In this document: piece by piece, positions 755 through 35,892 of the stretch | How the letters are laid out: every line of letters begins with the position of its first letter | Position numbering within the stretch: position 1 is the first letter of the stretch | Notes under the pieces: generated by a model | The model's input: only the letters and a program-made list of their open reading frames with translations | Database searches by the model: none | Told to the model about the DNA's origin: nothing | Origin: Squalus acanthias | Taxonomy: Eukaryota | Assembly: GCA_030390025.1 (NCBI GenBank) | Contig: CM059432.1 | Location: forward strand, 16,494,001-16,558,000 | Direction of reading: 5' to 3' | Length of the DNA: 64,000 bases | Translations under genes and position numbers: made by a program

Positions 755-1010
755 CAGTACTAAGGGAGTGCTGAATTGTCAGAGATGCTGTCGTTTAGAT
801 GAGATCTTCAACCAAGGCCCTGTCCACCCATTTAGGTGGATTTAAAGAATGCTTGATACTATTTGGAGAGAAGCAGGGAGTTCTCCAAGTGCCATTCATT
901 CCTCAATCAACGTCACAAAAATAATTTAATTGATCATTCATCTCATTTGCTTTTGGTGGAACCTTAATGTCCACAAATGTCCTGCTGTGTTTGCCTACAT
1001 AACAACAGTT
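755..1010 (+). mobile_element. DeuSINE (SacSINE1-like) fragment
   Basis: Diverged reverse complement of the 60408-60860 copy (gcagtactaagggagtgctg...gatgagat...aaccaaggccctgtc). Confidence 0.65.
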
Positions 1011-1019
1011 CTAAAATAA

Positions 1020-2651
1020 TTAAATATTGCTATCGGGGGGAGGAGTGTGACATATTCGATGAAATAAACATAGTGAGAGAGGAAGTATTAAGGGGTTTAG
1101 CAACTTTAAAAGTGGATAAATCCCCAGGCCCGGATGAAATGTATCCCAGGCTGTTAAGCGAAGCAAAAGAGGAAATAGCAGAGGCCCTGACCATCATTTT
1201 TCAATCCTCTCTGGCTTCAGGTGTGGTGCCGGAGGACTGCTAATATGGTACCCTTGTTTAAAAAGGGAGAAAAGGATAGACTGAGTAATTACAGGCCAGT
1301 CAGCCTCGGTGGTGGGAAAATTATTGGAAAGAATTCTGAAGGACAGGATAAATCTTCATTTAGAAAGACACGGATTAATCAAGGACAGTCAGCACGGATT
1401 TGTTAAGGGAAGCTCGTGTCTGACAAACTTGATTGAATTTTTTGAGGAGGTAACAAGGAGGGTAGATGAGGGTAGTGCGTTTGATGTAGTGTATATGGAC
1501 TTTAGCAAGGCTTTTGATAAGGTTCCACATGGAAGACTGGTCTCGAAGTTAAAAGCCCATGGGATCCAGGGCAAAGTGTCAAGTTGGATTCAAAACTGGC
1601 TCGGAGACAGGAAGCAGAGGGTAATGGTTGATGGGTGTTTTTGTGACTGGAAGGCTGTTTCCAGTGGGGTTCCGCAGGGCTCAATACTAGGTCCCTTGCT
1701 TTTTGTGGAATATATCAATGATCTAGACTTGAATATAGGGGGTATGATTAAGAAGTTTGCAGATGATACTAAAATCGGCTGTGTAGTTGATACTGAAGGA
1801 AGGAAGCTGTAGACTGCAGGAAGATATCAATAAATTGGTCAGGTGGACAGAACAGTGGCAAATGGAATTCAATCCGGAGAAGTGTGAGGTAATGCATTTG
1901 GGGAGGGCTAACAATGAAAGGGAACACACATTAAATGGTAGGACACTGAATAGTGTAGAGGAACAAAGGGACCTTGGAGTGCATGTCCACAGATCCCTGA
2001 AGGTAGCAGGCCAGGTAATAAGGGATACGGAATGCTTGCCTTTATTAGCCGTGGCATAGAATACAAGAGCAGGGGGGGTTATGCTTCAACTGTATAAAAC
2101 ACTAGTTAGGCGTGCAGTTCTGGTCACCACATTACAGGAAAGATGTGATTGCACTAGAGAGGGTACAGAGGAGATTTACATGGATGTTGCCCGGAGTAGA
2201 GAATCTTAGCTATGAGGAAAGACTGGATAGGCTGGGTCAATTTTCCTTGGAACGGAGGAGGCTGAGGAGAGACCTTATTGAGGTGTATAAAATTATGAGG
2301 GGCATAGATAAAATGGATAGAAAGGACCCATTTCCCTTAGCAGAGGGGTCAAAAACCAGGGGGCACAGAGTTAAAGTAATTGGTGGAAGGTTTAGAGGGG
2401 AATTGAGGGGAAATTTCTTCACCCAGAGGGTTGTGGGGGTCTGAAACTCGCTGCCTGAAAGGGTGATAGAGGCAGGAACCCTAACCACATTTAAAAAGTA
2501 CCTGGATGTGCACTTGGGATGCGCTAACCTGCAGGGCTACGGACCAAGAGCTGGGAAGTGGGATTAGGCTGGATAGCTCTTTGTTGGCTGGCGCGGACAC
2601 GATGGGCCGAAATAGCCTCCTTCCGTGCTGTAACTTTCTATGATTCTATGA
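1020..2651 (+). mobile_element. CR1-clade LINE, 5'-truncated, decayed RT and 3' UTR
   Basis: ORF fragments KSPGPDEMYPRLL, YMDFSKAFDKVPH, GVPQGSILGP, KFADDTK, FWSPHYRKD. Ends in a TTCTATGA tandem tail. Confidence 0.93.
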
Positions 2652-5505: not shown

Positions 5506-5519
5506 TGGTGACCCCGACG
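5506..5519 (+). promoter_or_regulatory. Primer-binding site, tRNA-Trp
   Basis: TGGTGACCCCGACG directly after the 5' LTR, complementary to the 3' end of tRNA-Trp (...CGUCGGGGUCACCA). Confidence 0.9.
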
Positions 5520-5544
5520 CTCAGAACATATTCCGAGCACTGCA

Positions 5545-8500: not shown

Positions 8501-9354
8501 TGGCCTGAGGCAATTCCACTGACCTCTACCACCACCGCCGACATCGCCAGAGCCTTCGTCAGCACCTGGGTCGCACAGTTCGGCGTCCCCTCCGACATGA
8601 CGTCGGACAGAGGTCCGCAATTTACCTCTGAACTCAGGACCGCCGTCGCACGCAATCTCGGGGTGACCATTCACTGCACCACAGCGTACCACCCCCAAGC
8701 CAACGGACTGTGTGAGCGGTTCCACAGATCCTTGAAGGCATCTCTTCGAGCCAGCCTCCAAGACGGCGCCTGGACCGACCGACTTCCGTGGGTCTTCCTC
8801 GGCCTGCGCACCGCGGTTAAAGAAGACCTCCACGCATCGGCAGCAGAGCTCGTGTACGGTCAGCCGCTGCGCGTTCCCGGCGAGTTCCTGCCCACCGCCA
8901 CGACACCCTGGTCAGCCGACCAGCAACGCCACGACTTCGCCTCACCGGCGCTGCAGTTCGCCCCGGTGCCCATTGCCCGACACGGCGAATCCACCTCACA
9001 CGTCCCACTAAGCCTGCACCAGGCACGGTTTGTTTTCGTCTGGCACGACGCCCACCGCGGACCCCTTCAACCCCCGTACGACGGGCCCTACAAGGTGCTA
9101 CAGGCTGGGGACAAATTTTTCACCCTGCAAGTGGGCGACAGGACCGAAAAAGTGTCGGTGGACCGACTCAAGCCAGCACACTCGGAGCCCGGGGAGCAGG
9201 TCCTGTAGCTCGTCCACCTCCACGCGGCCGACCTGCCCTCAAGCCGGTTCACCCAGCTGCTCCACGCCCGGCCGTTCCACGTCCACTGGCGTCCTACAAG
9301 AGCCGCTCCGGCCGGCCCATCAGACTGCCGCACCGTCTCGTCCACACCTCCTAA
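5545..9354 (+). pseudogene. Gypsy gag-pol polyprotein with two frameshifts (about 8203-8215 and about 9204)
   Basis: Gag KLPEFW..PEAWF and CYDHARF..AQRCTPPC knuckle; protease FLCNTGA (catalytic D to N); RT CGDYRRLN, MPFGLKNA, YLDD; RNase H TDASD, YSTFDRELLA. Integrase in ORF 8135-9208 (HNLSHPG..CLAC, HVDIVGPLP, SDRGPQF, NGLCERFH, YDGPY). C-terminal tail returns to the first frame and stops at 9354. Confidence 0.93.
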
Positions 9355-11284: not shown

Positions 11285-11790
11285 CATAGAATCATACAAC
11301 CAAGGAGGCAGCCATTCGGCCCACTGTGCCGGCTCTCTGAAAGACAACTAATTATTCCCACTCTCCTGCTCTTTCCCCATAGCCGTGCAAATATTTCCTT
11401 TTTAAGCACGTATCCAATTCTGTGTTGGAAGTTACAATTGAATCTGCTTCCACCACCCTTTCAGGCACAGTGCATTCCAGATCATAACTTGCTGAGTAAA
11501 AGAAATTCTGGTTACCAACCCTCCTGCCAGTGGATATAGTTTCTCCCTATCTACTCTATCAAACCCGCTCAGATTTTTGAGCACCTCTATAAAATCTCCC
11601 CGTAACCTTCTCTGCTCTAAGGAGAATAATCCCACCTTCTCTAGTCTCTCCACATAATTGAATTTCCTCATCCCCGATACCATTCTGGTAAATCTCCTCT
11701 GCACCCTCTCCAAGGTCTTGACATCCTTTCTAAAGCGTGGTGCCCAGAATCAGACACAATACTCTCGCTGATACCTAACCAAATGATTTA
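11285..11790 (-). mobile_element. CR1 LINE 3' fragment
   Basis: ERVQRRFTRMVSGMRKFNYVERLEKVGLFSLEQRRLRGD, with a catagaatcata tail. Confidence 0.88.
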
Positions 11791-16515: not shown

Positions 16516-17002
16516 AGAAACATAGAAACATAGAAAATAGGTACAGGAGTAGACCATTCGGTCCTTCGAGCCTGCACCGCCATTCAATGCGTTCATGGCT
16601 GAACATGCTACCTCAGTACCCCATTCCTGCTTTCTCGCCATACCCCTTGATCCCCTTAGTTGTGAGTGTTATATCTAACTCCCTTTTGAATATATTTAGC
16701 GAACTGGCCTCAACAACCTTCTGTGGAAGAGAATTCCATAGATTCACCACTCTCTGGGTGAAGAAGTTCCTCCTCAGCTCAGTCCTAAATGGCTTCCCCT
16801 TAATCCTTAGACTGTGACCCCTGGTTCTAGTTTTCCCTACCATTGGGAACATTCTGCCCGCATCTAATTTGTCTAAACCAGTCAGGATTTTAAATGTCTC
16901 TATAAGATCCCCCCTCATTCTTCTGAACTCCAGAGGATACAAGTTCAGTTGACCCAATCTTTCTTGATATGTCAGTCCGGCCATCCCAGGAATCAATCTA
17001 GT
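16516..17002 (-). mobile_element. HER1-like CR1 3' fragment
   Basis: ORF 16613-16996 (EFRRMRGDLIETFKIL...LWNSLPQKVVEA). Flanked by a GTAGAT duplication (16510-16515, 17003-17008). Confidence 0.9.
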
Positions 17003-17343
17003 GTAGATGTAGAGAAAACGTTTCCACTTGTGAGGGTGTCCTAAACTAGGGAGTCATAAATATAAGATAGTCACTAATAAAGCCAATAGAGAATTCAGGA
17101 GAAACTTCTTTACCCAAAGAGTGGAATGCACTACCACAAGGAGTAGTTGAGGCAAATGATGTATTTAAGCAGAAGCTAGATAAGCACATGAGGGAGAAAG
17201 AAATAGAGGATATGCTGATAGGGTTAGCTGAAGAGGGGTGGGAGGACGCTCGTGTGGAGCATAAACGCCAGCATAGACAAGTTGGGCCGCATGGCCTGTT
17301 TCTACGTGGTAGACTCTATGCAAAAACAGGAAGGCAGATTATT

Positions 17344-18086
17344 GGCCCAAAAATTAGTGCCGCTACGCGAGAGTACGCACTGTGTACTCTCACGTATTCT
17401 GTCTCCAATTGCCGGTTTTCTGCATGCACTGCGCATGCGCTGAAAACCGGCACTTGGTGAATGGAAAAGGGGGCGGGTCCTAGGTGAACCGCGTGCGCGC
17501 TACAGGCTGCGCGCATGCAGTGCACTTAGTGGTTTCAACGCGCAGGTAAGTATGGAAGATTCTACACATAAAAAAAGGAGTAAGACCCACTTTTAACAAG
17601 GTAAGTAGTGAATTAAGTATTATTTTGAATTTTTTTTTTAACAGGTATATCTTTTTTAGAGACTCTAAAGACAGGTAAGTTTATTTTTATAACTTTTTAA
17701 AAGATTTTAAATTTTTTCAAAAATTTAATTTTTTATTTAAAATGGTTAATTTATTTAACTATACTTATTTTATTAATGTGATGGTTTTTAAAAAAAATTT
17801 AATTGAGGTTTAGCAGTTCTTTTGGGGGGCTATAGTATTCATAGCTTTCACAGCACTTACGTGAAAGTTATGAATGGAAGATGGTGTGCTGCCATTGGCT
17901 CTAACTGAGTCACGTGATCCCACAGCTCGCACGAATTAACTACGCCTGTGGGATACGCAAGCCCAGCACAGCAGCTGTCCAGAACATCAAGTTCGTGCGA
18001 GCTGAAACTGAAAAAGCCAACGCGCAGTGAGAGATCGCGGGGAGGCCTTACCCTCGCACGAAGGCTTCCTCACGAATTTTTGGGCC
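17344..18086. mobile_element. Harbinger-type MITE
   Basis: Perfect 12-bp TIR GGCCCAAAAATT/AATTTTTGGGCC with 3-bp TSD ATT. GC-rich ends and an AT-rich core. Confidence 0.85.
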
Positions 18087-18089
18087 ATT

Positions 18090-18850
18090 ATCTGAACGGC
18101 AATAGATTGGGAAAAGGGGAAGTGCAACCAGACCTGGGTGTCCTTGTGCACCAGTCGCTGAAGGTAAGCATGCAGATGCAGCAGGCGGTTAAGAAGGCAA
18201 ATGGTATGTTGGCCTTCATAGCGAGAGGATTCGAGTACAGGAGCAAGGATGTCTTGCTGCAGTTGTACAGGGCCTTGGTGAGACCACACCTTGAGTATTG
18301 TGTGCAGTTTTGGTCGCCTTATCTGAGGAAGGATGTTCTTGCCATGGAGGGAGTGCAGCGAAGATTCACCAGACTGATACCTGGGATGGCAGGAATGACG
18401 TATGGAGAGAGATTGGGTCGATTAGGCTTATATTCGCTAGAGTTTAGAAGAATGAGAGGGGATCTCATTGAAACTTATAAAATTCTAACAGGACTAGACA
18501 GACTAGATGCAGGAACGATGTTCCCGATGGCGGGGGAGTCCAGAACCAGGGGTCACAGTCTAAGGATAAGGGGTAAGCCATTTAGGACTGAGATGAGGAG
18601 GAATTTCTTCACCCAGAGAGTGGTGAACCTGTGGAATTCTCTACCACAGAAGGCAGTTGAGGCCAATTCATTAAATATATTCAAGAAGGAGTTAGATATA
18701 TTTCTTAAGGCTAAAGGGATCAAGGGATATGGGGAGAAAGCAGGGACAGGGTACTGAATTTGGATGATCAGCCATGATCTCATTAAATGGCGGAGCAGGC
18801 TCGAGGGGCCGAATGGCCTACTCCTGCTCCTATCTTCTATGTTTCTATGT
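18090..18850 (+). mobile_element. HER1-like CR1 3' portion, young
   Basis: Uninterrupted frame to the stop at 18757 (LVRPHLEYCVQFWSPYLRKD...), then 3' UTR and TTCTATGT tail. Confidence 0.93.
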
Positions 18851-22396: not shown

Positions 22397-22788
22397 TACG
22401 TGTGTGTGTGTGTCTATTACGAGTGTGTGTGTGTCATCTTGACAATATACCACGGCAACCAACATCAATAGAATGGCTATTACCGCAATAACGCACTCTC
22501 AGTCCTTGGCCTCTAGTGTTAGGTGCTACATTTGGGGAAGTTTAGAATTCCATACGACATTTATCTCTACTATAGGCTAGATTAAGATACCACAACTGAT
22601 CCATTCACAATCTTTAATAAACTTATCAACATTATCACCCCTCTCACTGAATTTGGTCCTAGGTCAGCTGAAGTGCAGAAACAAAGTTATGTCATCACCA
22701 AGGGGGACAAAATTTCGAATTCAGTGTTATTTTATTCTAAACATTCAGTATCTTACATTTAAAACAAGGTACAGTGCCTGCTATTTAC

Positions 22789-22875
22789 CTGATAATGATT
22801 GTGTTGTACCATGTGTTGTGGACTGGGGAAGAAACCATCACTGGATCTTGGACTTGGGTAGCCTGGTCTACTGGG
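22789..22875 (-). CDS. PTK2: PTK2/FAK coding exon (proline-rich region)
   Basis: AG|CCC AGT AGA...TAT CAG|GTAAAT. 87 nt, phase 0-0. PSRPGYPSPRSSDGFFPSPQHMVQHNHYQ matches FAK PSRPGYPSPRSSEGFYPSPQHMVQTNHYQ. Confidence 0.97.
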
Positions 22876-23684
22876 CTATTGCAGAAAAAATAAAAAGAAA
22901 CATCAACAGAAATACACAATAAATATTATCCACTGTTACAGCTGAACACAAAGAGCCAAGTACTTGCACTGTACAGATAATGTGAGAGGTCAGGTACATG
23001 ATATGTGTGCACTAAGTGTGAAAGAAAATTGGTTATTTCAGACAGTTAGACAGGGTTGTAAATTTTGATACGTACAGCTGGAATATTCCATGTTTGGCCT
23101 ATAAGGCTTCAGGGTTACTTTGTGTAAATAACATTTCTACAGCTTTAAAGTAAATTTGAGTATTAGTCATAAGTCAAATTTTCATTAAATGCAGTTAAGC
23201 GGAGACACCATCCTCTGCAATTATTCAGTGTAGTGGTAGGCAAATTTAACCCTGTTAAATGCGGTAATAATTGCTTGCTCATAAACTCTAAACTATAGAC
23301 TATAGGTTCAAAAAGGATTATTTTCAAACTGTGCCATCTTTAGTCTGTTTTTTTCTGCTGAAGCATACAGAGGCTAACAAGAAAGGAATGCAGTGTGTTT
23401 AAAGTAATTTTATTAAAACAAACATACATTTAGAATGTATGTGTTTTGAAGTATCATGCAAGGTATTGAATGGTTTCTTTCAGCATGCTAAAATATAATT
23501 TACCACTGAGATAGCCTAAAAAGGTCCTCCAAAGGAGCTGATATTTTAATGATAATATAAAGCCAAAATTTATTACCAGTAGGTTTTCCAAAGAATAGGA
23601 TTCTCACCTAGCCATTTTTTAAAAAACTGCTGCAGTGCTGGCAAATATTTTTAACCACAATATTTTGGCTGTGTTTTTTTAACA

Positions 23685-24550
23685 ATAAAACAATAACTTG
23701 CATTTATATAGCACCTTTAATGCATCAATACGTCCCATGGCACTTGAGAGGTGTAATCAACAAACAAGAACGGCAAGGCATAGAACGAGAGATTACGAGG
23801 GGTGATCAAAAAGTTGGTCAGAGGTGGGTTTTACGGAGGGTGTTAAAGGAGGAGAGGTGGAGGGGTTTAGGTGGGGAATTACAAAGTATGGGGCCTCTGC
23901 CGCTGGAAGCATGGTTGCCAACGGTTAGGCGAAGGAAGGGAAGGATCCACAAGAGGGCAGTTGGAGGAAGAGAGTGTTCTTTTGGGGGGCGGGGGGAGCG
24001 AGTGGGCTATGGTCTGGTGGAGGTTACAGAGATAGGGAGGAGCAAGGCGTGTAGGAATTTAAACATGAGAACTTTAAATTAGAGGTGTTGGAGGATCGTG
24101 AGCGAATGTTGGTCAGCAAGGACAGGAGTTAGAGGTGATCAAAACTAGGTGTGGAATAGGATATGGGCAGCAGAGTTTTGGATGAGCTGAGGTTTACAGA
24201 GGGTGGAGCATGAGAGCTAGCCAGGAGAGCATTGGAATAGTCGGGCGTGGAGGCGAAAAAGGCATGGATGAGTATTTCAGCAGGAGATGGACTAAGGCAG
24301 GGTTTCAGGCAGGCGATGTTATGAAGGTGGAAGTCGGCAGTCTTTGATATGGAGAAGATATGGGGTCGGTCGCATAGATCAGAATCAAATAAGGACACAG
24401 AGATTGTGAACAGTCTGGTTCAACCAGCAGTGACTGGGAGGGAGATGGAATCAGCGACAAGGGTATGGAGTATGTGCCAGAGGTGGAAGACAATGGCTTC
24501 AGTCGTCCCAATGTTTAACAGGAGGAAACTGCGCTCATCCAAGACTTGAT
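23685..24550 (-). mobile_element. L2-type LINE 3' fragment
   Basis: aacttgcatttatatagcacc tail. Minus-strand ORF ISKTADFHLHNIACLKPCLSPSPAEILIHAF...DYSNALLA. Confidence 0.8.
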
Positions 24551-25372
24551 ATAAAACTGGATACACGGTGAAGTCTTCAATTTATAATATTGAAAAAAAT
24601 TGGTCGATATGCTGCTAAAACTCTGATCTGACAACGGCCAACAATTTCAAAAACCCAGTGAGAGAGGGAGGGATGGAAGGAACTTACATTTATAGCATCT
24701 TATCAATCCTCAGGATGTTCCAAAGTGCTTTATAACCAATTTTGGAAATGTTATTAGGTAGTGAAATGCGCCAGCCAATTTGCTCATAGCAAGATCCCAC
24801 AAACAGCAAATAAATAAATAATTATGATAACAAACATCAAGCGATTCACTAAAGCCGTGCATTAAAATAATTACAGTAGTTTATACCTCTCTGCTGCATC
24901 TGTGCCAGCATACACGCCAACTATCACTTTGGAAATACATATGTATTGAAAACTCAACTAAATCTCCCATGGCAATGCTCAGGAACTTTTATGGATCTGG
25001 CTAGGCAAGAACAGTAAAGTAACCTTTAAAATAATTTTTAAAAAGTACAACGCAATCAAGTCCGCAAACTTATAAAGGAAAAAAAGGGTTGGAGCATGTG
25101 GTTGGAGCAAAGAGTGTGGGATGGAGGCTGGCCCCAAAGGTACAGAGGAGTGGGTAGGTTACAGGCTTGATCCAAACCCTAACACAAGCCAGCAGGAGGC
25201 TTGTGCTGAGTTGGCTGATCAGAGATGTCTTCATATCTGGTAAGTGTATATTTTTGTGAAACAGGCTCGAGCGGCTGAATGGCCTCCTTCTATTCATATG
25301 TTCCTATATATGTTTTTACAACACATGGCTGTAAAAAACATATATAGGAACATATGAACCGGAGTAGGCCAT

Positions 25373-26520
25373 TCCAAAAGGCGTTTGATAAAGTGTCACA
25401 CAATAGGCTTGCCAGCAAAGATGAAGTCCATGGAATAAAAGGGACAGTGGCAGCATGGATACGAAATTGGCTAAGTGACAGGAAACAGAGAGTAGTGGTG
25501 AACAGTTGTTTTTCGGACTGGAGGAAGGTACACAGTGGTGTTCCCCAGGGGTACTCGGACCATTGCTTTTCTTGATATATATTAATGACTTGGACTGGGT
25601 GTAAAGGGCACAATTTCAAAATTTGCAGATGACACAAAACTTGGAAGTATAGTGAACAGAGGAGGATAGTGATAGACTTCAAGAGGACATTGACAGGCTG
25701 GTGGAATGGGCGGACACGTGGCAGATGAAATTTAATGCAGAAAAGTGCGAAGTGATAAATTTTGGTAGGAAGAACGAGGAGAGGCAATATAAAATAAAGG
25801 GTACAATCCTAAAGGGGGTGCAGGAACAGAGAGATCTGGGGGTATATGTGCACAAATCGTTGAAGGTGGCAGGGCAGGTTGAGAAAGTGATTAAAAGAAG
25901 CATACGGGATCCTGGGCTTTATAAATAGAGGCATAGAGTACAAAAGCAAGGAAGTTATGATGAAGCTTTATAAAATACTGGTTTGGCCTCAACTGGAGTA
26001 TTGTGTCCAATTCTGGGCACGCACTTTAGGAAGGATGTGAAGGCCTTAGAGAGGGTGCAGAAAAGATTTACAAGAATGGTTCCAGGGATGAGGGACTTCA
26101 GTTACGTGGATAGACGGGAGAAGCTGGAGTTGATCTCCTTAGAGCAGAGAAGGTTGAGGGGAGCTCAAAATCTTGAGGGGTCTGGACAGAGTAGATAGAG
26201 AGAAACTGTTCCCATTGGCGGAAGGGTCAAGAACCAGAGGACACAGATTTAAGGTGATTGGCAGAAGAACCAAAGGCAACATGAGGAAAAACTTTTTTAC
26301 GCAGTGAGTGGTTAGGATCTGGAATGCAAAGCTGAAAGGGTGGTGGAGGCAGATTCAATCGTGGCTTTCAAAAGGGAATTGGATAAGTACCTGAAGGAAA
26401 AAAATTTGCAGGGTTACGGGGAAAGGGCAGGGGAGCGGGACTAGCTTAAGTGCTCTTGCAGAGAGCCGGCACGGGCTCGACAGGCCGAATGGCCTCCTTC
26501 TGTGCTGTAACCATTTTATG
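25373..26520 (+). mobile_element. CR1 LINE, 5'-truncated
   Basis: FQKAFDKVSH, WADTWQMKFNAEKC, ALERVQKRFTRMVPG, then the 3' UTR. Confidence 0.9.
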
Positions 26521-26724
26521 GCTCACTTTTGTGCATTTTTCATGACAGTTGTATGAGCGTGAATGTGAAGTTGGTGGGGAACTGTCATGGTGGCTGTGTT
26601 TAATTTAATGTAGGGAGCTGCAATAAACAAATAGAGAGACGTTTTGTTTTGTGGAATTTGACTGGCAAGATAGGGAGCAGAACCCGAAGATTAATATATG
26701 ATTGGCAATATATGCAGGTGTATT

Positions 26725-28250
26725 AGCATAGGAACAGGAGTAGAACATTCAACCCATCCAGCCTGTTCCACCATTCAATTAGATCACGGCTATCTATATA
26801 TCAACTCCATTTACCCACCTTTGTTCCCAATCCCATGAAACCATTTACCTAACAAAAATCTATCAATCTCAGTCTTGAAGAGTTCAATTAACCCAGCATC
26901 CATAGCCTTTTGAGGGAGAGTTTTCCAGATCTCCACCACCCTTTGTGTGGAAAAGTGCTTCCTGATTTCATTCCTCAATGAGAAGTCGCACAACACCAGG
27001 TTATAGTCCAACAGATTCCTCAATGGCCTAGCTATAATTTTAAGATTTTGCCCTCTTCTTCTGGATTCCCCCACCAGAGGAAACAGTTTCGCTGTCTCTA
27101 CCCTATTAAATCCCTTAATCATTTTGAAAACCTTGATCAAATCACCCATCACCTTCTGCCCAAAAATGAACGTCGTAGAACTGATGGGGTCTGACCAAGG
27201 CTCTGCACTGAAGCATCTTCATTTTTGAATTTCAAGATACAGGCCAACATTCCATTAGCCTTCTGATTACTTTTTGTACCTGTGCACTAGCTTTTTAATG
27301 ATTTTTAAAAAATTCGTTTATGGGATGTGGGCGTCGCTGGCAAGGCTAGCATTTATTGCCCATTCCTAATTGCCCTCGAGAAGGTGGTGGTGAGCCGCCT
27401 TCTTGAACCGCTGCAGTCCGTGTGGTGAAGGTACTCCCACAGGTAGGGAGTTCCAGGATTTTGACCCAGCGATGATGAAGGATCGGCGATATACTTCTAA
27501 GTCAGGATGGTGTGTGACTTGGAGGGGAACTTGGAGGTGGTGGTGTTCCCATGCACCTGCTGCCCTTGTCCTTCTAGGTGGAAGAGGTCGCGGGTTTGGG
27601 AGGTGCTGCCGAAGAAGCCTTGGCGAGTTGCTGCAGTGCATCTTGTAGATGGTACACACTGCAGCCACGGTACGCCGGTGGTGGAGGGAGTGAATGTTTA
27701 AGGTGGTAGATGGGGTGCCAATCAAGCGGGCTGCTTTGTCCTGGATGGTGTCGAGCTTCGAGTGTACATTTGTGTACGTGGACATCCAAATTCCTTTGCT
27801 CGTCTCTCACCATTAAGAAAATATTCAGATTTGTCTCCGATCTAAAGTGGATGACCTCACACTTCCCCACATTCAACTCCATCTGCTATAGTTTTGCTCA
27901 CTCACTTAGTCTGTCTATGTCCCTTTATAACATCCTGCTCCCATCCTCACAACCTACTGTGCCTTCTAACTTAGTGTCATTTGCAAACTTGGATATACAA
28001 CTCTCTATTCCTTCATCCAAGTCATTAATATATATGGTGGAATGCTGAGGCCCCAGTATAGATCCCTGGGTAACACCACTTGGCACATTCCGCCAATCAG
28101 AGAACAAACCCTCTGTCCCTACTCTCTGTCTCCCACCTCTCAATCAACTACCAACCCATGTTACAAAGTTACCGCCAATTCCATGCGCTCTAATTTGTGT
28201 TAGTAATCTCTTGTATGGAACCTTATCAAATGCCTTCTGGATATCCATAT
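26725..28250 (-). mobile_element. CR1 LINE with nested insertions
   Basis: GDLIKVFKMIKGF, SKFANDTKL, GVTQGSILGP. Interrupted by the 27303-27760 LINE and a 34-bp insert at 26981-27014. Confidence 0.85.
27303..27760 (-). mobile_element. A-tailed LINE 3' fragment
   Basis: KLDTIQDKAARLIGTPSTTLNIHSLHHRRTVAAVCTIYKMH, the C-terminus of a LINE ORF2. Confidence 0.85.
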
Positions 28251-31200
28251 AGACAAGAAGAAAAGCAGATATAATTCAGACACTTAGTTACTGAGAAAGT
28301 AAAAGAAAAGACACTACAGACATAGATGCAAAAAATATCTGTACAGATTTGCAAAAATGCTGAGAGATAATTATAACTTTCATAATTTCCAAACACTGTA
28401 GAAGAGAACAATGATTTCCAGAAGGCAGAATGCCCTCTATAATTCAATAATCTGGAAAATTATTTTGCATAATGATGGAAACTTGCTAGTTAAAGTTAGT
28501 AATTGAATAAAATTACATCGAAATTACAATATGCAAAAAGGCTGTTCAATTTAACCAGTCTATGTTGGTGTTTATCCTCCACTGAGCAGTAGCCGAATCC
28601 CATATGCCTGCCTCATTCCCAAATCCCTTTATTCTCTTTTCCTTCAACCACCTGTCTAACCTGGTGTTAAATGTTGGCATGGCCCCTCCTTCAATCATTA
28701 CCTCCAGCAGTGTATTCCACAACAACCCTAATTATTGTAAAACCTAGTATGCAAGTCAGCCTATTTTTACTATTGCTTTCTTCTGTAAAATCTCAGCACA
28801 CTGCACCCCAAATTTAGGAGTAGAACAAGCACAAATTAAAGTATGCATTGCATGCATTTTTTAGCAACAGTATAATATCGTGCTGATAATGCCACATTTA
28901 TGGTAAAGAATTTTCCTTCATGTTAATCACCTTCCTCACATGCTCCTGGACGCGGTGTGATATCTACCAACAAATCAGAGGAATAAAATTGGGCATAGTC
29001 CAAGCTTGTCTGCCTTAAATATTTTCTACATTACAACAGTGACTACACTTTAAAAGCACTTCATTGGCTGTAAAGCATTTTGGGATATTCTGAGGTTGTG
29101 AAAGGCGCTACATAAATGCAAGTCTTTCTTTAATATACCAGTTCCACTACCAGTGATCAACACTGGACATGTGTGCTTCGTTATTTGTAACACACAATTG
29201 TTGGATAGTAAGAACAGTGAAGGGTGGATCAAGAGACGCAGAAGTGGATATGCATTTTTTTTCGTGGTGGCAGTGGAGACGGAAGAATAACGAGTTGTAT
29301 CTCCATTCTTGTTATATGGTAGAATAGGGGTCACTATATACTTGAGTCTATTATTCAACATATTACAGAGTTCTATTTCTCCTTTCTTACATTAAAAAAA
29401 TCACAACAAAAAGTGCTGGAGTAAGGATACTTCCTCTCCTTTTCTTTGTTTCCTGTTGCCACACACAATATCGAGCCAACAACAACTTGTATTTATATAG
29501 TGCCTCTAACGTAGTAAAAGCTAAGAGGGAAGCTACCTGTTCACAGGCCTCTGCCAATGCTGCGCTCAAATGACCATTTGCGTGGAGAAGGTGAGGGTAG
29601 CCTTCAAGTTGATGCCCTCACACCATGGCATGCCCGAGATTGGGCTATGGAAGATTACCTTACCCTTCCACGTTACAATACATACCGGCCTCAAGACACT
29701 GTTCGTATTTGTTTTTAAAGAAATCATGTATCTAGTAATGCACACATTTATCGCACCATTGGTTTAAACTTGAATGACATATAGCAATAACTCTGAAACA
29801 ATTACTTCTGTGCTACACTCTGGTGACATGTCCTCACAGACATTCAACTCCAAATCAAATTCACTTTTGAGTGAACTAGTTTAGTGAACAAAAGGCATAA
29901 AAGACAAAACTGTACCTGCACTGCTTTATGAATATTTTTCATTCTGCACAAATGACGTTACGAATAAAAGTGCACTCAGCCTTCTACAAAAAGCATCAAT
30001 CCACTACTGAGATTTGTATTCTCCCCTCAGTGGTTATCTTTACACAAGTTCCAGTCTAGAAATCATACAGTAAGGTTTGCATTTCTTGGTGGAAGTGTAA
30101 TGACTATCACAGTAACTTTTCATCTATTGATAAAGATGTGCCATTTTTAGACCTGAAATTAAATAGATAGTTAGTCCTTCAGGGATCTGACCAAGGTCTC
30201 AAAAATATAACTTTGGTTAATAATGTCTTTATAATATAATCAATTTAACTTGGGTGTTATTGGTTAGCTATTTAGGTTTTAGGCAAGGCTCACACTGGTA
30301 GCAGTTTCCCTTGCCAGAAACAATGGTGGATAATCACCTGACCAGATAAAGTCACCTGTCCAGGTAGAAAGTCTCCTGCTTCCATGGTCAGTAAAGGACG
30401 TGCAGAGATATTTTATGTTATAGCTTTGAACTGAAACACAAAATGGTGCCCTCTGGTACCTCAGCCAAGTTAACTAATCATCCTTTTTGTTTGAGGCCAA
30501 ATGCTGAACGATGGCAGGCTACTTAACAATGGAGTAGATCATAGCAGAATCAATCATGTCCTTCACCTGACATCCATAAATACATACTTTCCTGGAATGA
30601 CTGGATATCAAACAGAAGTAGGAACATTGGCTGATTTCCACCCCGCCCCCTCCTTAATCAAGAGCTGCTGAGATCAATTCCAACACCACAATCATCTCCC
30701 TAGCTAAGATCAGTTGGTTCAGCATAGACCAGAACCACTCCCCACCAACTGACTTTAGCAGGCAAAAGGACAGACACTATTGCTCACTGATAACACAAAG
30801 TATGGACTGAATGCATTGTTTAAAAATAATTTTCAAAAGTTCAAGGGTATAATCAGACAAATACTAACTGAAGTGGATTTTGGTGTACAGTTTTTGCCGT
30901 AAACCTGTGTTATCTCATTCATTTCTGTAACTTTCTGATAAAACATTTGCTGCTACAATCATAAACTGCTGCCAGTATCTGCATCATATATAGAGAAAGA
31001 AACTCCATTATACCATATGTATTATACACATGCACCACACACGCATGGCAATTTTACATTCCATTAATAGCTTTCATGCTGGTGGAAAAAAACTTATCAA
31101 GTTGCACATATGAAAACACCAAATCAAGTGAAAACTTACTGCCATCAGTTTCATAGGATGAGAAAGTAGAAAGGAGTGATGAAAGATATATGGAGGCACA

Positions 31201-32399
31201 AAAAGGCAAGCAATTAAAACACAGGGGAAGTTACAGATCTTACAACAGATTCTCTGTGAAAGGGAGGACCATATTGGACATGCTGGGTTAGACTGAACAC
31301 TTAGCTCATCCACTGCATCCAGGAAGAAATAATTGTTAGCATGGATGTTACTCAAAGAAATTGGTAATTATTTACATCGTTTTCAGAAGTTTTCTTTGGT
31401 AAAGAAAAAAAGTGAAAAGACTTTGTCAATTGGTTAAAAATGTTGCTGCATTATCACAACTGAAACATGTATGTACCAAGAAGTGGGTTTATGAATTTTC
31501 CCCAAAGCAACCTCACACCTATTTAAAGAGCTGTGTGAATTTAGTACTCATCAAGGTGAAGGGTTTACGTGTGACCCATTTTGAGCACTCCCAGGTTAGG
31601 TGTACCACAATTAACTGCAGAGTGAAGTTCTCTCTTCACTGCTGCAACAATATGCCTCATCACCAACTTCAGAACAGTGCAACATTTTACCCTTTCCCAC
31701 ACCAGCTATTTTGTGACTTGCCAATTTAGTGCTAAATAGGGGCAGTTATCTGGCTATGCCCACCAGGAAAAAGATCAAGACTACTAAACTCACTTCATAC
31801 AGGGCACTTACAGTCAACAGACAGAGGAGATACACATCCCATCAATCTGGGCTGGATATGAATCCAGATCTGAGCGGTGAAAGGCCAGTGTTTAACTCGC
31901 TACGCCACCCAGTCCTTCCCAAAGATGTGCTTATGATATTTATTATTTAGAGAACTTCTTTTCAGTACATTTTGAATGTAGAACCATGTTTGGAGAAAAA
32001 AAGGGGTGCCCTGATGGCGCTGTGCCACAGAGTGTTAGCAAATGAGTTTGCACCCACAATTTCCCCACATAATGGGCTCCTGATCTCATGTCACCATTTT
32101 GGAGACATCATAGAGGTGAAGTGCTTCTCTGTAGAAAGTGAGGAGAGAAAATTGTTCTCATGTACCCTCTTGACATCTGGGCTTAAAGAGAAGGAAAAAA
32201 AATGAAAAAAATGCTGACTTTTTAATTAAATGTGTCACTGAAATGAAAAGGATTGCTGTTCTGTGCACCAGATGTAGAATTTTAAATGCGTCATCAATTA
32301 CCAACACTGCCTTTCACTATTTAGTTCATTTATGTCTATAGTTAGCTATATGACAATGTCTGTGTTGGTCTTTTCTCCCTTTGCACAGTGAATCCTAAC

Positions 32400-32705
32400 C
32401 ATTGCTTCTCCCTGGTCTCTTCTCCATTCTCCAGACATCAGTTGTCGCGGCAGATTCACGTTCAGCCTGTCAAAATAAAGGGGAAGCGGACGAGCACTCT
32501 GTCGGTAGGCTGAAGGGGGCAGAGAAGGCCTGCGCCGAGGCCGCATAGGAAGAAGCCTGTCAGAAGCAGACGCAGTGAATGGATGCTCGTAAGCTTTTGA
32601 TGGCTGTTCTAGACATAAACAAAACTTGATGTTGCGCTGGGAGAACTCAGGAAAAGACAGACTGTCCAAGCTAAGACTGTGTTGTAAAGGTGGCCGACGG
32701 GCTGG
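32400..32705 (-). CDS. PTK2: Candidate additional (alternative) PTK2 exon, 102 codons
   Basis: Pyrimidine-rich acceptor (ttttctgctttaatctgctttatgtgtctgtctgcAG|CCA GCC CGT), 306 nt without a stop, donor ATG|GTTAGG. Phase 0-0 fits both neighbouring exons. Visibly richer in GC and CpG than the flanking intron and not like any repeat in the window. Confidence 0.6.
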
Positions 32706-33599
32706 CTGCAGACAGACACATAAAGCAGATTAAAGCAGAAAAGCAGCATGTATCAGTGTAACAAAAATGTGAGACTATTATGATCATTATGGATGACAAA
32801 TGAACATGCAAACCAAAATCGAAGACATGCTACATGAGAAGCATAGACAGCACACTCAATTTGAGACTGTAATTTAAGTAAAGATTACGTTCTACAAATA
32901 AAATTTAACCCTATAAATATTAGATATTTCTACAAGAGAAGGGACTAAAAGCGTCACCTTTTTTTATCCTAATGGTAAAATATGAAGATTTTCAGTCCAT
33001 ACTATAACAAATCACAAATGCAGAAAACGCGTGATCATTTGAGTTGATAGATAAAATACTCAGCCCACTGAAAGGCAAGTTATTTCATAGTACAAGAGTC
33101 GTGTATTAAATTAAACTAACTTTGTCAAAAAAAAATCAATAGAAGCATGAAATATTGCTGATAGAGAGACGCTTGACGATATACTCTGAACTTATTTTGT
33201 ACCTTCACATACTGGTTAGTTTTGATTTAAGTTTTCAAATAAATGTTTTTGATGAGCTACAATTAGACAATGTAAATGAACTTCAAAGGCTAAGTACTGT
33301 CATTGTGGTACCATAAAAAAAATCGCAGTGTATAAAGGTAATATCTAGCTTACTTGGTTTCAATTATGTTCTTTGGCAGATAGCTCATGGCCTTGCTAAC
33401 AAGACACTGCACAATTCAAAACTAATCTATGTATACCACGTCATCCACCATATAACATAATTTCTAATCTAAAGGAATATTTTCTCAACTTTGTGCCAGT
33501 CTTAAAATGAGGCAGATATATATTTAAAATGATCTACCTTCAACATTTAATAAATAATATGATTATGAACGTAAAAAGTGTGGAAAATCAAAACATTCA

Positions 33600-34320
33600 G
33601 GGGGAGAAATTGGCCTCCTTTGCGTCTCCCGTAGGCGCTACCAGCTTTGCGACCGGGCGCGGCGATAGTACTAATGCCCGCGAAATTGACGTGGAGGTTT
33701 GCGGCAGCGGTAACCACTAGCGCCAGGATCTCTGCGCCCGGAGATCGTGACGTCATCCGGCTGCGCAGCGCCCCGGATCCGAACTTCGGTTCCGCCCCCT
33801 GTAGCATCGCTGGCCGATAACGCCGACAGCTGCAGGAGGTGTTGTTAGGGAGGCTGGGCGCTTGGGGAGCGGTATTTAAAGGTAAGGCCGCTTGTGTCAA
33901 TGAAAAATTTGTTTTCACCCTTCATGTTATTTTTTCAACTTTTTCCTGTGCCACGATTGATCAGCCCTGCACTCTGTTAGAGTGCTTGGGGCTGATCTTC
34001 GTGGATCGTGGCTGCCATCGGCGACAAGGAACATCGATTTAATGCAGAGCCCGCAGCAATGGCCCTTTCCTTTAAGGGAGGGAAGGAGCCTCCGTTCCCG
34101 GCAGCGCTGCTCTCGACATTGGGCAGCGCTGCACCACTACCGCCCCTTTTGCCGAACTTTAGCGCTCCAAGGGAAGTAGTAGCACTTGATTTAGTACTCC
34201 ACTTCCTTCCTGGAGCACTAAACACGAAATTCGTGTCGGATTCACTGGCGTAGCGTCCGGCGCTACTTTTTCATTACCGCTAAAGGTATCGCAAACAGGG
34301 CGATACTTAATTTCTCCCCC
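33600..34320. mobile_element. Harbinger-type MITE
   Basis: Perfect 12-bp TIR GGGGGAGAAATT/AATTTCTCCCCC with TSD TCA (33597-33599, 34321-34323). CpG-rich. Confidence 0.88.
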
Positions 34321-34574
34321 TCAGTCTTCAGCAGTGAATTAAAAAGTAATTTAAACAGCAAAACATTTGTATTAACAAATAAGTAGCTTATGCATGCGCA
34401 TTAATGGCAGTACTTTAATAGAAGTTCACAAGAACCCACTCAAATCTATACTCTTGATTCATCTCAGACGAGAGAATGTTACAAAAGAATCCAAGGATGC
34501 ATTCACACACCATCTTTAATGTCGGACACTAAAAATCGTGTGTAAATAGGGTCGATGGCATGTCATTCTTCTGC

Positions 34575-35190
34575 CCCTGCGTCAGCTCATCTGCTGCTGA
34601 AACCCTCATCCATGCCTTGGTTACCTCTAGACTTGACTATTCCAACGCACTCCTGGCCGGCCTCCCATCTTCCACCCTCATAAACTTGAGCTCATCCAAA
34701 ACTCTGCTGTCCGTATCCTAACTCGCACCAAGTCCCCTTCACCCATCACCCCTGTGCTCGCTGACCTACACTGGCTCCCAGACCGGCAACGCCTCGATTT
34801 TAAAATTATCATCCTTGTTTTCAAACCCCTCCATGGCCTCACCCCATCCTATCTCTGTAACCTCCTCCAGCCCTACGCCCCTCCGAGATCTCTACGCCTC
34901 TCCAATTCTGGCCTCTTGCGCATCCCTGATTTTAATCGCTCCACCATTAGTGGCCGTGCCTTCAGCTGCCAAGGCACTAAGCTCTGGAATTCCTTCCCTA
35001 AACCTCTCTGCCTCGCTCTCCTCCTTTAAGACGCTCCTTAAAACCTACCTCTTTAACCAAGCTTTTGGTCATCTTTCCTAATATCGTCTTCTGTGGCTCG
35101 GTGTCAAATCTTGTTTGATAACGGTCCTATAAAGTGCCTTGGGCCGATTTACTACATTAAAAGGCACTATATAAATGCAAGTTGTTGTTG
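34575..35190 (+). mobile_element. L2-type LINE 3' end
   Basis: ETLIHALVTSRLDYSNALLAGLP, LADLHWLPDRQRLDFKII. Tail tataaatgcaagttgttgttg. Confidence 0.9.
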
Positions 35191-35605
35191 ATTTCATAAA
35201 TTCAAACCTACCCAAATATAATCTGAAATTTTGGAGATGAGTCATTCAAAATTTCCCACCACTGATGGTCAAACCTGAAAACAAACCTGAATACTGCAAC
35301 TTGGGGCATTCTTCCATTAGTGGAAAAAAAGATAGCTGCAACTATTCGATATTACTTAAGTCAGATCCATATCAACAGTAACAAATATCAATTTAAATTT
35401 GTAATAAACCTTTTATTTATTTATTTATTTATTTAATGTTTGTATATAAACCATTAAAAGGAGGCCTTTGAATGATGAAAAGATGCACTACGTCAAGCCG
35501 GGAATTGAACAAGCAACCAAAGAACACCACAATGTAAATATTTCATGACAATTAGATGTTTTTAAAATAGTGCAGGCAGCTAGATGGGTTGAATGACCAC
35601 TGTAC

Positions 35606-35717
35606 CTTTGGAGGGGCTTCATCTGATCCTCCTGAATCCCAGGAAACTGTGATCTGTCGTCTCTGCTCCATTCTCATTCGTTCTTCCTGCTGCACTTTCT
35701 CCTCTTCCAATATTGTA
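35606..35717 (-). CDS. PTK2: PTK2/FAK coding exon (end of kinase domain to proline-rich region; contains the FRNK start Met)
   Basis: Minus strand ttctttcAG|T ACA ATA TTG...CCA AAG|GTACAG. 112 nt, translating to (S)TILEEEKVQQEERMRMEQRRQITVSWDSGGSDEAPPK, nearly identical to vertebrate FAK STILEEEKAQQEERMRMESRRQATVSWDSGGSDEAPPK. Confidence 0.97.
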
Positions 35718-35892
35718 CTGAAAGAAAGAAAATAATATTTATTTTTATGTCAGAAAAACAAACTGCCCTTAGCAATAACTGGGCCACATTAGTGAGGAAA
35801 GTTCAGACAATTCAAAAATCAATATTTGTACTCTTGCAAACGTATAGCAAATAATGGCACTAGGAAGACCGAGGCGACCAAATTACTGATAA

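What the first reader, a model, noticed from the sequence alone, without database searches (positions are those of the whole stretch)
32346..32760. Unexpected 102-codon in-frame exon in PTK2/FAK that rebuilds the SH3-binding motif
Seen: between the canonical ...DEAPPK exon (phase 0 donor) and the PSRPGY... exon (phase 0 acceptor) lies a non-repetitive, GC/CpG-enriched island. It has a good acceptor (AG at 32707-32706), 306 stop-free nt and a phase-0 donor ATG|GTTAGG at 32400/32399. Peptide: PARRPPLQHSLSLDSLSFPEFSQRNIKFCLCLEQPSKAYEHPFTASASDRLLPMRPRRRPSLPPSAYRQSARPLPLYFDRLNVNLPRQLMSGEWRRDQGEAM. Known: FAK APPKPSR, which spans this junction, is the p130Cas SH3-binding site. Splicing to the new exon gives APPK|PAR and keeps the PxxPxR pattern. 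The insert also has a basophilic kinase site (RRRPS) and further PxxP motifs. I do not recognise this exon from mammalian FAK isoforms. Inference: a lineage- or tissue-specific cassette exon. If the weak donor is ignored, reading on to the TAG at 32348-32346 would give a kinase-containing FAK without the FAT domain.
Basis: partly seen in the sequence, partly recalled or inferred. Interest (0 to 1): 0.85.

Follow-up and report, generated by a model that had tools for sequence, protein, structure and literature searches.

The report
Ancient fish-wide extra exon in FAK
The stretch is a genuine, very old optional coding exon of the focal adhesion kinase gene, shared by sharks and ray-finned fishes and already present in automated gene models, which adds about 100 unstructured residues right after a known docking site.

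Summary
On the minus strand, a 306-nt stop-free phase-0/phase-0 segment (32705-32400) has an AG acceptor behind a pyrimidine tract and a weak GT donor. It lies between the FAK exons ending DEAPPK (35606) and starting PSRPGY (22875). It is GC/CpG-richer than its intron and single-copy in the 3.7-Gb genome.

It is not new to databases. NCBI-predicted FAK1 isoforms carry a homologous insert at exactly this junction in bamboo shark (88/104 identical), sterlet, paddlefish, gar, zebrafish, goldfish, a sucker, cavefish, a catfish and Danionella. Lengths run from 35 to 152 aa and are always in frame.

Nine N-terminal positions (P.R...LQ.S.S.D.LS) are invariant in 12 of 12 sequences. An R-x-R-P-S-[LIV]-P-P motif and, in non-teleosts, LPLYFDRLN.NLQRQLM are also conserved. 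AlphaFold predicts disorder. The first codons (PAR or PSR) restore the P-x-x-P-x-R SH3 ligand.

No transcript evidence for this species could be obtained. No tetrapod counterpart was found. The published list of FAK alternative exons lacks this exon. Function is inferred only.

The parts
35606..35717 (-). Constitutive FAK exon ending ...SWDSGGSDEAPPK, with a phase-0 donor AAG|gtacag. By my inference from the residue ranges in Table 1 of PMC1570463 it is exon 24 of the Corsi nomenclature. It carries the first half of the PRR2 SH3 ligand.
   Evidence: 94.9% aa identity to bamboo shark over 39 aa
32706..32745 (-). Acceptor region of the extra exon: the pyrimidine-rich tract tgcttttctgctttaatctgctttatgtgtctgtctgcag, ending in AG at 32707-32706.
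32400..32705 (-). Extra coding exon, labelled 'exon 24a' by me. It is 306 nt, 102 codons, phase 0/0 and stop-free. It encodes PARRPPLQHSLSLDSLS... RPRRRPSLPP ... LPLYFDRLNVNLPRQLMSG ...EAM.
32346..32399 (-). Read-through extension if the weak donor ATG|gttagg is not used: VRIHCAKGEKTNTDIVI then TAG (32348-32346). The first 8 residues are identical in the read-through models of two other sharks. Beyond them the three sequences differ in length and sequence.
32221..32226 (-). ATTAAA hexamer 120 nt downstream of the TAG, a candidate poly(A) signal for a terminal-exon form. Its use is not shown. A second hexamer, AATAAA, lies at 31944-31939.
22789..22875 (-). Constitutive FAK exon PSRPGYPSPRSSDGFFPSPQHMVQHNHYQ, 87 nt, with phase-0 acceptor aatag|CCC and donor CAG|gtaaat. 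By inference it is Corsi exon 25.

Best explanation
The segment is a real, ancient protein-coding exon of PTK2/FAK. It lies between the exon that ends with APPK and the exon that begins with PSRPGY.

When included, it inserts about 100 intrinsically disordered residues into the kinase-FAT linker, directly behind the first half of the PRR2 SH3-binding site. Its first codons (P-A-R here, P-S-R in teleosts) replace the PSR of the next exon, so the class II ligand A-P-P-K-P-x-R survives inclusion.

The insert carries three short linear motifs:
1. P-[AS]-R-x-x-x-L-Q-x-S-x-S-x-D-x-L-S, invariant from sharks to zebrafish.
2. R-x-R-P-S-[LIV]-P-P, a basophilic-kinase and 14-3-3-type serine site.
3. In sharks, sturgeons and gar, LPL[YC]FDR...L[QP]RQL.

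Inferred mechanism (not shown): the exon is a regulated docking module that changes which partners assemble at PRR2, probably under control of serine phosphorylation.

Its donor (ATG|gttagg) is weak, so two outputs are possible. One is cassette use, giving full-length FAK plus the insert. The other is donor read-through to a stop 17 codons later, giving a kinase-containing FAK without PRR3 and the FAT domain. Both are modelled in other sharks.

Shown: anatomy, single-copy status, orthology and frame conservation, motif conservation, predicted disorder. Inferred: actual splicing in this species, regulation, partners. The confidence given applies to 'real conserved coding exon of FAK'; the docking mechanism alone I would put near 0.3.
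For: Anatomy.

Homology:
- The exon peptide alone retrieved 2 of 662 candidates, both FAK1 isoforms: Chiloscyllium punctatum X5 at E 3.9e-44 and Acipenser ruthenus X6. BLASTP identity to the former is 88/104.
- The sturgeon region retrieved 6 of 3802 candidates.
- A 7-sequence profile retrieved 13 of 8000 scored candidates, all fish FAK1.

Position of the insert:
- Of 42 proteins held, 37 have an insert of 35-152 aa exactly between ...EAPPK and PSRPGYPSP. These include 11 of 11 C. punctatum isoforms and 14 of 14 gar isoforms listed in their clusters.
- 2 more read through the donor.
- 3 are unrelated or are fragments.
- There are 13 different insert lengths, all in frame.

Conservation: 9 positions are invariant in 12 of 12 aligned inserts. 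20 of 25 residues are identical between this shark and sturgeon in motif 3.

Frame constraint: within sharks the exon has only in-frame indels. The read-through tail keeps VRIHCAKG and then differs in length and sequence between the three sharks.

Other support:
- Single copy.
- DNA contigs of two related organisms span the exon together with its flanking intron: 29486-33698 and 32069-33659, with 137 and 71 differing letters.
- Disorder: AlphaFold mean pLDDT 57.7, pTM 0.11, no helix of 4 or more residues or strand of 3 or more. No Pfam family at E<=10.
- PRR2 is DEAPPKPSRPGYP, and its proline mutations disrupt SH3 binding (PMC3430618, one passage). APPKPSR is the p130Cas SH3 class II ligand (PMC6395809, one passage).
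Against: - No splice-junction or other transcript evidence for this species was obtained.
- The supporting gene models are automated predictions, and I cannot see their underlying evidence.
- The models were retrieved through the insert, so species in which the segment is broken would not appear.
- No model lacking the insert was retrieved (0 of 37), so 'alternative' rather than constitutive is not shown for sharks.
- The exon evolves far faster than the constitutive sequence. Between two Chiloscyllium species it is 100/104 identical, and between Chiloscyllium and Stegostoma 83/96 plus an 8-residue gap. The preceding kinase-to-APPK stretch is 330/330 and 329/330 identical.
- Motif 2 is missing in the Stegostoma and Danionella models, and its serine is replaced in Xyrauchen. 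The full R-x-x-S-x-P pattern is present in 8 of 12 sequences.
- No tetrapod homologue was found (weak evidence).
- The functional motifs are matched to consensus patterns that I recall. They were not tested.
Confidence: 0.85

Rival explanations
1. In this shark the segment acts mainly as an alternative terminal exon. The weak donor is skipped, translation ends at TAG 32348-32346, and the mRNA is polyadenylated in the intron. The product is a kinase-active FAK that keeps the insert but lacks PRR3 and the FAT domain, a mirror image of FRNK. This is not exclusive of cassette use.
For: - The donor ATG|gttagg has T at -2 and +3.
- The in-frame stop comes 17 codons after the donor.
- ATTAAA lies 120 nt downstream of the stop.
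- NCBI models of Chiloscyllium plagiosum (X17, 924 aa) and Stegostoma tigrinum (X11, 913 aa) end in exactly this way.
- The first 8 read-through residues, VRIHCAKG, are identical in all three sharks.
Against: - 11 of 11 listed C. punctatum isoforms splice on into PSRPGY and the FAT domain.
- After 8 residues the tails differ in length and sequence, so the tail itself is not conserved as protein.
- The conserved 24 nt may instead be an intronic splicing element next to the donor.
- Read-through models can arise from retained-intron reads.
- No 3'-end data were available.
Confidence: 0.25
2. It is a non-functional pseudo-exon: conserved intronic DNA, for instance a regulatory element, that annotation pipelines occasionally splice in. 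It would have no role as protein.
For: - The exon diverges much faster than the constitutive FAK sequence.
- Motif 2 is lost in some species.
- The peptide has no predicted fold.
- No transcript evidence was obtained here.
Against: - The frame is kept at 13 different insert lengths in 14 species spanning the split of cartilaginous and bony fishes.
- Nine residues are invariant in 12 of 12 sequences, in one reading frame.
- The exact phase-0 junctions are conserved.
- The P-x-R start that restores the SH3 ligand is present in the 12 of 12 aligned full-length inserts.
- GC and CpG content are exon-like against an AT-rich intron.
Confidence: 0.06
3. It is an exonised transposable element or dispersed repeat, like the primate-specific FAK exons 18a and 23a.
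For: The surrounding introns are full of LINE, SINE and LTR fragments. Corsi et al. linked the non-conserved human FAK exons to LINEs (PMC1570463, section 11).
Against: - There is one copy only in 3.71 Gb, both as DNA and as protein.
- Contig depth over the exon bin is single-copy-like in the two DNA runs: 6.6 and 8.2, against 10^4-10^6 over the repeat bins.
- It is orthologous across jawed fishes.
Confidence: 0.01

Closest known systems
Conserved alternative coding exons of FAK: exons 13, 14, 16 and 31, encoding boxes 28, 6, 7 and PWR (Corsi et al. 2006, PMC1570463)
   Same: An optional, in-frame coding exon of the same gene, conserved over long evolutionary distances. It encodes a peptide in a disordered linker next to a signalling motif.
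   Different: - Position differs: it lies between exons 24 and 25, at PRR2, not around Tyr-397 or just before the FAT domain.
- It is much larger: about 100 aa against 3-28 aa.
- It was found here only in fishes, whereas those four exons are vertebrate-wide.
- It is not in that paper's list (abstract, sections 10-11 and Table 1 passages read; its 8 supplementary files could not be opened).
Human/primate FAK exon 23a (91 nt with an in-frame stop), which predicts FAK with an intact kinase but no proline-rich regions or FAT domain (PMC1570463, section 11 and discussion passage)
   Same: The read-through form here would also give a kinase-containing, FAT-less FAK.
   Different: - Exon 23a is primate-specific, LINE-associated and one intron further upstream.
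- The segment here is single-copy and ancient, keeps PRR2 and adds about 119 residues.
- It can also be spliced onward.
FAK exon 26 / PYK2 exon 23, the alternatively skipped exon between PR2 and PR3 (PMC1570463, discussion passage)
   Same: Alternative splicing that changes the length and content of the kinase-FAT linker between the proline-rich motifs.
   Different: That is a different exon, two exons downstream of the extra exon, and a skipping event of an otherwise constitutive exon. There is no sequence similarity. No copy of the present exon was found elsewhere in the genome, so none in a PTK2B gene.
FRNK, the C-terminal non-kinase product from an internal promoter
   Same: One retrieved model (Xyrauchen texanus isoform X3, 573 aa) starts just upstream of the exon-24 sequence, lacks FERM and kinase, and includes the insert. 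The exon can therefore be combined with a FRNK-like product.
   Different: FRNK is defined by its promoter, not by this exon. The read-through form is its opposite: kinase without FAT.

Membership tests
PTK2/FAK1 gene (host locus) | Neighbouring exons encode the FAK1 kinase-FAT linker, in order and on one strand | tested here: met
   tblastn with C. punctatum FAK1 X1 gave five collinear minus-strand HSPs at 35722-35606, 32708-32400, 22875-22783, 21837-21697 and 20981-20841. The four constitutive exons are 89-98% identical.
Cassette (alternative internal) exon | AG acceptor with pyrimidine tract, GT donor, open frame, length divisible by 3, matching phases | tested here: met
   306 nt, phase 0/0. 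The donor is weak (ATG|gttagg).
Cassette (alternative internal) exon | Homologous insert at the same exon junction in orthologous mRNAs or gene models | tested here: met
   37 of 42 held proteins, from 14 species, have an insert exactly between EAPPK and PSRPGYPSP. These are predicted models only.
Cassette (alternative internal) exon | Splice-junction reads in this species (35606>32705 and 32400>22875) | tested here: inconclusive
   No run on record as RNA holds the exon. No such joint appears among the 15 joints listed, and 9662 joints were not shown.
Cassette (alternative internal) exon | An exon-skipped mRNA exists in the same species, so the exon is optional and not constitutive | not tested
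   0 of 37 retrieved models lack an insert, but all were retrieved through the insert. Shorter inserts from internal acceptors exist in zebrafish (35 aa) and paddlefish (83 aa).
Published conserved FAK alternative exons 13/14/16/31 | Located beside Tyr-397 or immediately before the FAT domain, encoding 28, 6, 7 or 3 residues | tested here: not met
   This exon lies between exons 24 and 25 and encodes 102 residues.
Alternative terminal exon giving FAT-less FAK | In-frame stop after donor read-through, and orthologous models ending the same way | tested here: met
   TAG comes 17 codons after the donor. C. plagiosum X17 and Stegostoma X11 end in ...EEAM-VRIHCAKG-...stop.
Alternative terminal exon giving FAT-less FAK | A used poly(A) site downstream | tested here: inconclusive
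   ATTAAA lies at 32226-32221 and AATAAA at 31944-31939. No 3'-end data were available.
Class II SH3 ligand PRR2 of FAK (APPKPSR) | P-x-x-P-x-R core kept across the new junction | tested here: met
   The junction reads APPK|PAR here, and PAR or PSR opens the insert in 12 of 12 full-length inserts. The motif is defined in PMC3430618 and PMC6395809 (passages). Binding itself is not testable here.
Basophilic-kinase / 14-3-3 mode-1 type site (R-x-x-S-x-P; consensus recalled, from no call) | Pattern present and conserved | tested here: inconclusive
   RRRPSLP is present here. The full pattern occurs in 8 of 12 aligned inserts. It is deleted in Stegostoma and Danionella, changed at +2 in C. plagiosum, and has S>Y in Xyrauchen. 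Phosphorylation and binding are not testable.
Paxillin-type LD motif (L-D-x-L-L-x-x-L; consensus recalled) | Amphipathic helix with hydrophobic residues at 0, +3, +4 and +7 | tested here: not met
   FDRLNVNL has N at +4, and SLDSLSFP has S at +4. AlphaFold predicts no helix of 4 or more residues.
Exonised transposable element / dispersed repeat | Multiple copies in the genome | tested here: not met
   There is one DNA match (itself) and one significant protein match (itself) in 3.71 Gb. No tandem repeat was found.

The most novel reading that the evidence does not exclude
The exon is a two-way switch retained since the common ancestor of jawed vertebrates. Regulated use of its weak donor would decide between two products. 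One is a full-length FAK whose PRR2 scaffold is re-wired by a phospho-serine docking insert. The other is a kinase-active FAK that cannot reach focal adhesions because it lacks FAT, a natural counterpart to FRNK. Loss of the exon in tetrapods would then mark a change in how FAK scaffolding is controlled. A bolder sub-variant is that the invariant L-x-L-D-x-L-S stretch acts as a nuclear-export-like or FAT/LD-like element that relocates the kinase.
Probability: 0.12. Interest if true: 0.6.

Novelty: new member of a known kind. Interest (0 to 1): 0.33.

Why it matters
FAK is among the most studied signalling scaffolds. Its catalogued conserved alternative exons (boxes 28, 6, 7 and PWR) all change how it is activated or targeted.

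This would be a fifth conserved exon. It encodes about 100 residues, sits directly on the p130Cas/SH3 docking site, dates to the base of jawed vertebrates and is present in zebrafish, so knockout and isoform-specific assays are feasible.

Its practical value is for fish and shark annotation and for zebrafish FAK studies that assume the mammalian isoform set. It does not overturn anything known. It is already present in automated gene models.

Tried and rejected
**Transcript evidence**
- No RNA holder listed. Of 13 runs returned for the exon, none is on record as RNA.
- I laid four runs on 22700-35800. Repeats dominated the output.
- None of the 15 listed joints links 35606 to 32705, 32400 to 22875 or 35606 to 22875. 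A further 9662 joints were not shown.
- One 204-nt contig of run X1 (kind only guessed as RNA, 0 differences) covers 32589-32792. One 337-nt contig of X2 (also guessed) covers 32491-32758. Both bridge the acceptor unspliced. They may be DNA or pre-mRNA, so nothing follows from them.
- Position-wise differences inside the exon for the DNA runs X6 and X10 were not among the 40 of 1357 rows shown. Exon-versus-intron divergence and dN/dS could therefore not be computed.

**FAT-binding idea**
- I asked complex prediction whether the insert binds the FAT domain in cis through LD-like motifs. The verdict was 'no answer' (score 0.01), which is neither support nor evidence against.

**Searches that returned nothing useful**
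- phmmer of the exon against 1.84 billion cluster representatives gave 1 hit, P0003. It is a 356-aa tandem-repeat protein at 30% identity in 5 stretches and is unrelated. FAK clusters are evidently represented by isoforms without the insert.
- Pfam found 0 families at E<=10.
- Rfam found 0 families at gathering score in 31000-34000.
- Earlier findings of this scan gave nothing, by place, sequence or words.
I repeated it with the single protein.

**Literature (7 searches)**
- No paper describing an exon between FAK exons 24 and 25 turned up.
- PMC11216089 (passages) and the bioRxiv preprint 10.64898/2026.09.24.749599 (one passage) mention Ptk2/ptk2ab splicing without naming the exon.
- The 8 supplementary files of PMC1570463, which include the alignment and exon tables, cannot be read here. 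They might show whether fish linkers with this insert were seen in 2006.

**Rejected readings:** chance ORF, transposon exonisation, antisense gene (plus-strand frames reach at most 55 aa).
Full report
**1. Observation**

- Read on the minus strand, the segment is exactly as described. A pyrimidine-rich tract ends in AG at 32707-32706. The exon runs from 32705 to 32400: 306 nt, 102 codons, no stop. The donor is ATG|gttagg.
- If the donor is ignored, the frame runs 17 more codons to TAG at 32348-32346. The stop-to-stop frame is 32346..32729, 127 aa.
- The upstream exon ends ...SGGSDEAPPK|gtacag at 35606. The downstream exon starts aatag|CCC AGT AGA CCA GGC (PSRPG) at 22875 and ends at 22789.
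- tblastn with a bamboo-shark FAK1 isoform places five collinear FAK exons on the minus strand, with the candidate as the second.
- The exon has GC 0.526 and CpG o/e 0.67. Its 300-nt flanks have GC 0.32 and 0.36 and CpG o/e 0.39 and 0.10.
- It is not repetitive. There are no tandem repeats in 22700-35800. There is one DNA match, itself, in the 3.71-Gb assembly. There is one significant six-frame protein match, itself; six others have E 0.2-0.8.
- Nothing of note lies on the plus strand, where frames reach at most 55 aa. No Rfam family is found in 31000-34000.

**2. What it is**

- The 102-aa peptide alone retrieved two long proteins from 662 candidates, and both are named FAK1 isoforms. They are Chiloscyllium punctatum X5 (E 3.9e-44; 88/104 identical with one 2-residue gap) and Acipenser ruthenus X6.
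- The sturgeon region retrieved 6 of 3802 candidates. A 7-sequence profile retrieved 13 of 8000 scored candidates. All are fish FAK1: bamboo shark, sterlet, paddlefish, spotted gar, zebrafish, goldfish, razorback sucker, Mexican tetra, striped catfish and Danionella.
- Cluster look-ups added C. plagiosum, Stegostoma tigrinum and further isoforms.
- A script then asked what lies between ...EAPPK and PSRPGYPSP in each of the 42 stored proteins:
  - 37 carry an insert of 35-152 aa exactly there. These include 11 of 11 listed C. punctatum isoforms (104 aa) and 14 of 14 listed gar isoforms (111 aa).
  - 2 carry the insert but never reach PSRPGY (see section 3).
  - 3 are irrelevant: one unrelated repeat protein and two N-terminal fragments.
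- The insert length differs among species: 96, 102, 103, 104, 111, 91, 110, 130, 147, 152 and 119 aa for the full-length forms (Danionella also has a 101-aa form), plus 83- and 35-aa forms that start at internal acceptors in paddlefish and zebrafish. It is always in frame.
- In a 12-sequence alignment, nine positions are invariant: P1, R3, L7, Q8, S10, S12, D14, L16 and S17.
- A second block, R-x-R-P-S-[LIV]-P-P, is intact in most sequences. The R-x-x-S-x-P pattern holds in 8 of 12.
- A third block, LPLYFDRLN.NL.RQLMSG, is 20/25 identical between this shark and sturgeon. It has decayed in teleosts.
- Such conservation across the split of cartilaginous and bony fishes, in one reading frame and at identical phase-0 junctions, is what a coding exon under selection shows.
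- It is not what neutral intron or a transposon shows.
- DNA contigs of two related organisms span the exon with its flanking intron: 29486-33698 with 137 differing letters, and 32069-33659 with 71. The segment is therefore at the orthologous place in relatives.

**3. The read-through form**

- The C. plagiosum X17 (924 aa) and Stegostoma X11 (913 aa) models continue past the donor...EEAM-VRIHCAKG... followed by a stop.
- The window gives VRIHCAKGEKTNTDIVI-stop.
- The first eight residues are identical in the three sharks. After that the tails differ in length and sequence.
- Either these 24 nt are a conserved intronic element beside a regulated donor, or the short tail is coding.
- ATTAAA lies 120 nt after the stop.
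- Corsi et al. described a functionally similar but primate-specific, LINE-linked truncating exon (23a) one intron upstream (PMC1570463, section 11).

**4. Strength of constraint**

- The exon is far less constrained than the rest of FAK.
- Between the two Chiloscyllium species it is 100/104 identical. Between Chiloscyllium and Stegostoma it is 83/96 identical, with an 8-residue in-frame gap that removes motif 2.
- The 330 residues before it are 330/330 and 329/330 identical.
- Against this window the exon is 84-85% identical to bamboo shark. The neighbouring exons are 89-98% identical.
- AlphaFold with the 12-sequence alignment predicts no structure: mean pLDDT 57.7, pTM 0.11. Pfam finds nothing.
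- The picture is a disordered insert carrying a few conserved short linear motifs.

**5. How it probably works (inferred)**

- By residue arithmetic from Table 1 of PMC1570463 (exon 23a removes residues from 677 on; exon 26 is 744-789), the flanking exons are Corsi's exons 24 and 25. The PRR2 sequence DEAPPKPSRPGYP with prolines 712/713 (PMC3430618, passage) supports this. PRR2 is therefore split by this intron after Lys-714.
- APPKPSR is the class II ligand of the p130Cas SH3 domain (PMC6395809, passage citing Polte and Hanks).
- Every full-length insert begins P-A-R or P-S-R (12 of 12), so inclusion regenerates A-P-P-K-P-x-R. The short internal-acceptor forms do not: they read APPK-HSR and APPK-GPR.
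- The insert then adds an invariant serine-rich L-Q-x-S-x-S-x-D-x-L-S element and an R-x-R-P-S-x-P site.
- That site fits the basophilic-kinase and 14-3-3 mode-1 pattern. The consensus is recalled, not tested.
- My best mechanistic guess is a phospho-regulated docking module next to PRR2. The weak donor would allow regulated choice between cassette and terminal use.
- None of this was tested.

**6. Comparison with the known**

- The published conserved alternative exons of FAK are 13, 14, 16 and 31, encoding boxes 28, 6, 7 and PWR. The paper lists no exon between 24 and 25. I read its abstract, sections 10 and 11 and the Table 1 passages. Its supplements are unreadable here.
- Seven literature searches found no description of this exon.
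- It is therefore a further member of a known kind, a conserved alternative FAK exon. It is present in automated annotation but, as far as these searches reach, not characterised.
- No tetrapod protein was retrieved. This is weak evidence, because only the 8000 candidates sharing the most words were scored. Absence from tetrapods remains to be tested on genomes.

**7. What is missing**

- No run on record as RNA holds the exon, and no junction was seen (see Tried and rejected).
- Whether sharks ever skip the exon is open, because every retrieved model contains it.
- dN/dS could not be computed because no orthologous DNA could be extracted.

**8. Verdict**

The cassette-exon reading is supported by orthology and the read-through reading by two shark models. 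'Unexpected' and 'lineage-specific' are overstated. This is an ordinary but neat finding of moderate interest.

Noticed in passing
window 5512-9208 (+): A long retrotransposon pol region lies in a FAK intron. One 991-aa open frame has DUF7041, RVT_1 and RNase H domains. An overlapping 390-aa frame has an integrase zinc-binding domain and an rve core. This is LTR-retrotransposon-like and looks largely intact. I only described it.
   Followed up: partly
window 968-2444 (+), 17918-18757 (+), 11432-11749 (-), 16613-17053 (-), 26811-27218 (-): There are several LINE-type reverse-transcriptase and C-terminal fragments. The frame at 1285-1812 matches RVT_1 at E 7e-22. Recurring peptide tails such as ...RRNFFTQRVVNLWNSLPQ... 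point to one abundant LINE family.
   Followed up: partly
window 23574-29700 and 33600-35400: These intron stretches gave summed contig depths of 10^4-10^6 in two DNA runs, against about 5-40 for the unique intron and exons. They are highly repeated elements flanking the single-copy exon island. The GC-rich block at 33600-35000 (GC up to 0.57) belongs to them.
   Followed up: no
P0009 (Xyrauchen texanus FAK1-like isoform X3, 573 aa): This is a FRNK-like model. It has a private N-terminus joined to the exon-24 sequence, has no FERM or kinase domain, and includes the 152-aa version of the insert. The exon is therefore not tied to kinase-containing products.
   Followed up: no
P0013 (Danio rerio) and P0004 (Polyodon spathula): Shorter inserts of 35 and 83 aa start at internal acceptors within the same exon. 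They drop the invariant N-terminal motif and the P-x-R that restores the SH3 ligand. This suggests graded sub-variants of the exon.
   Followed up: no
P0018 (Stegostoma tigrinum X11) versus the other sharks: An 8-residue in-frame gap removes the otherwise conserved RRRPSLPP motif. It could be a true 24-nt deletion or a modelling or assembly artefact.
   Followed up: no
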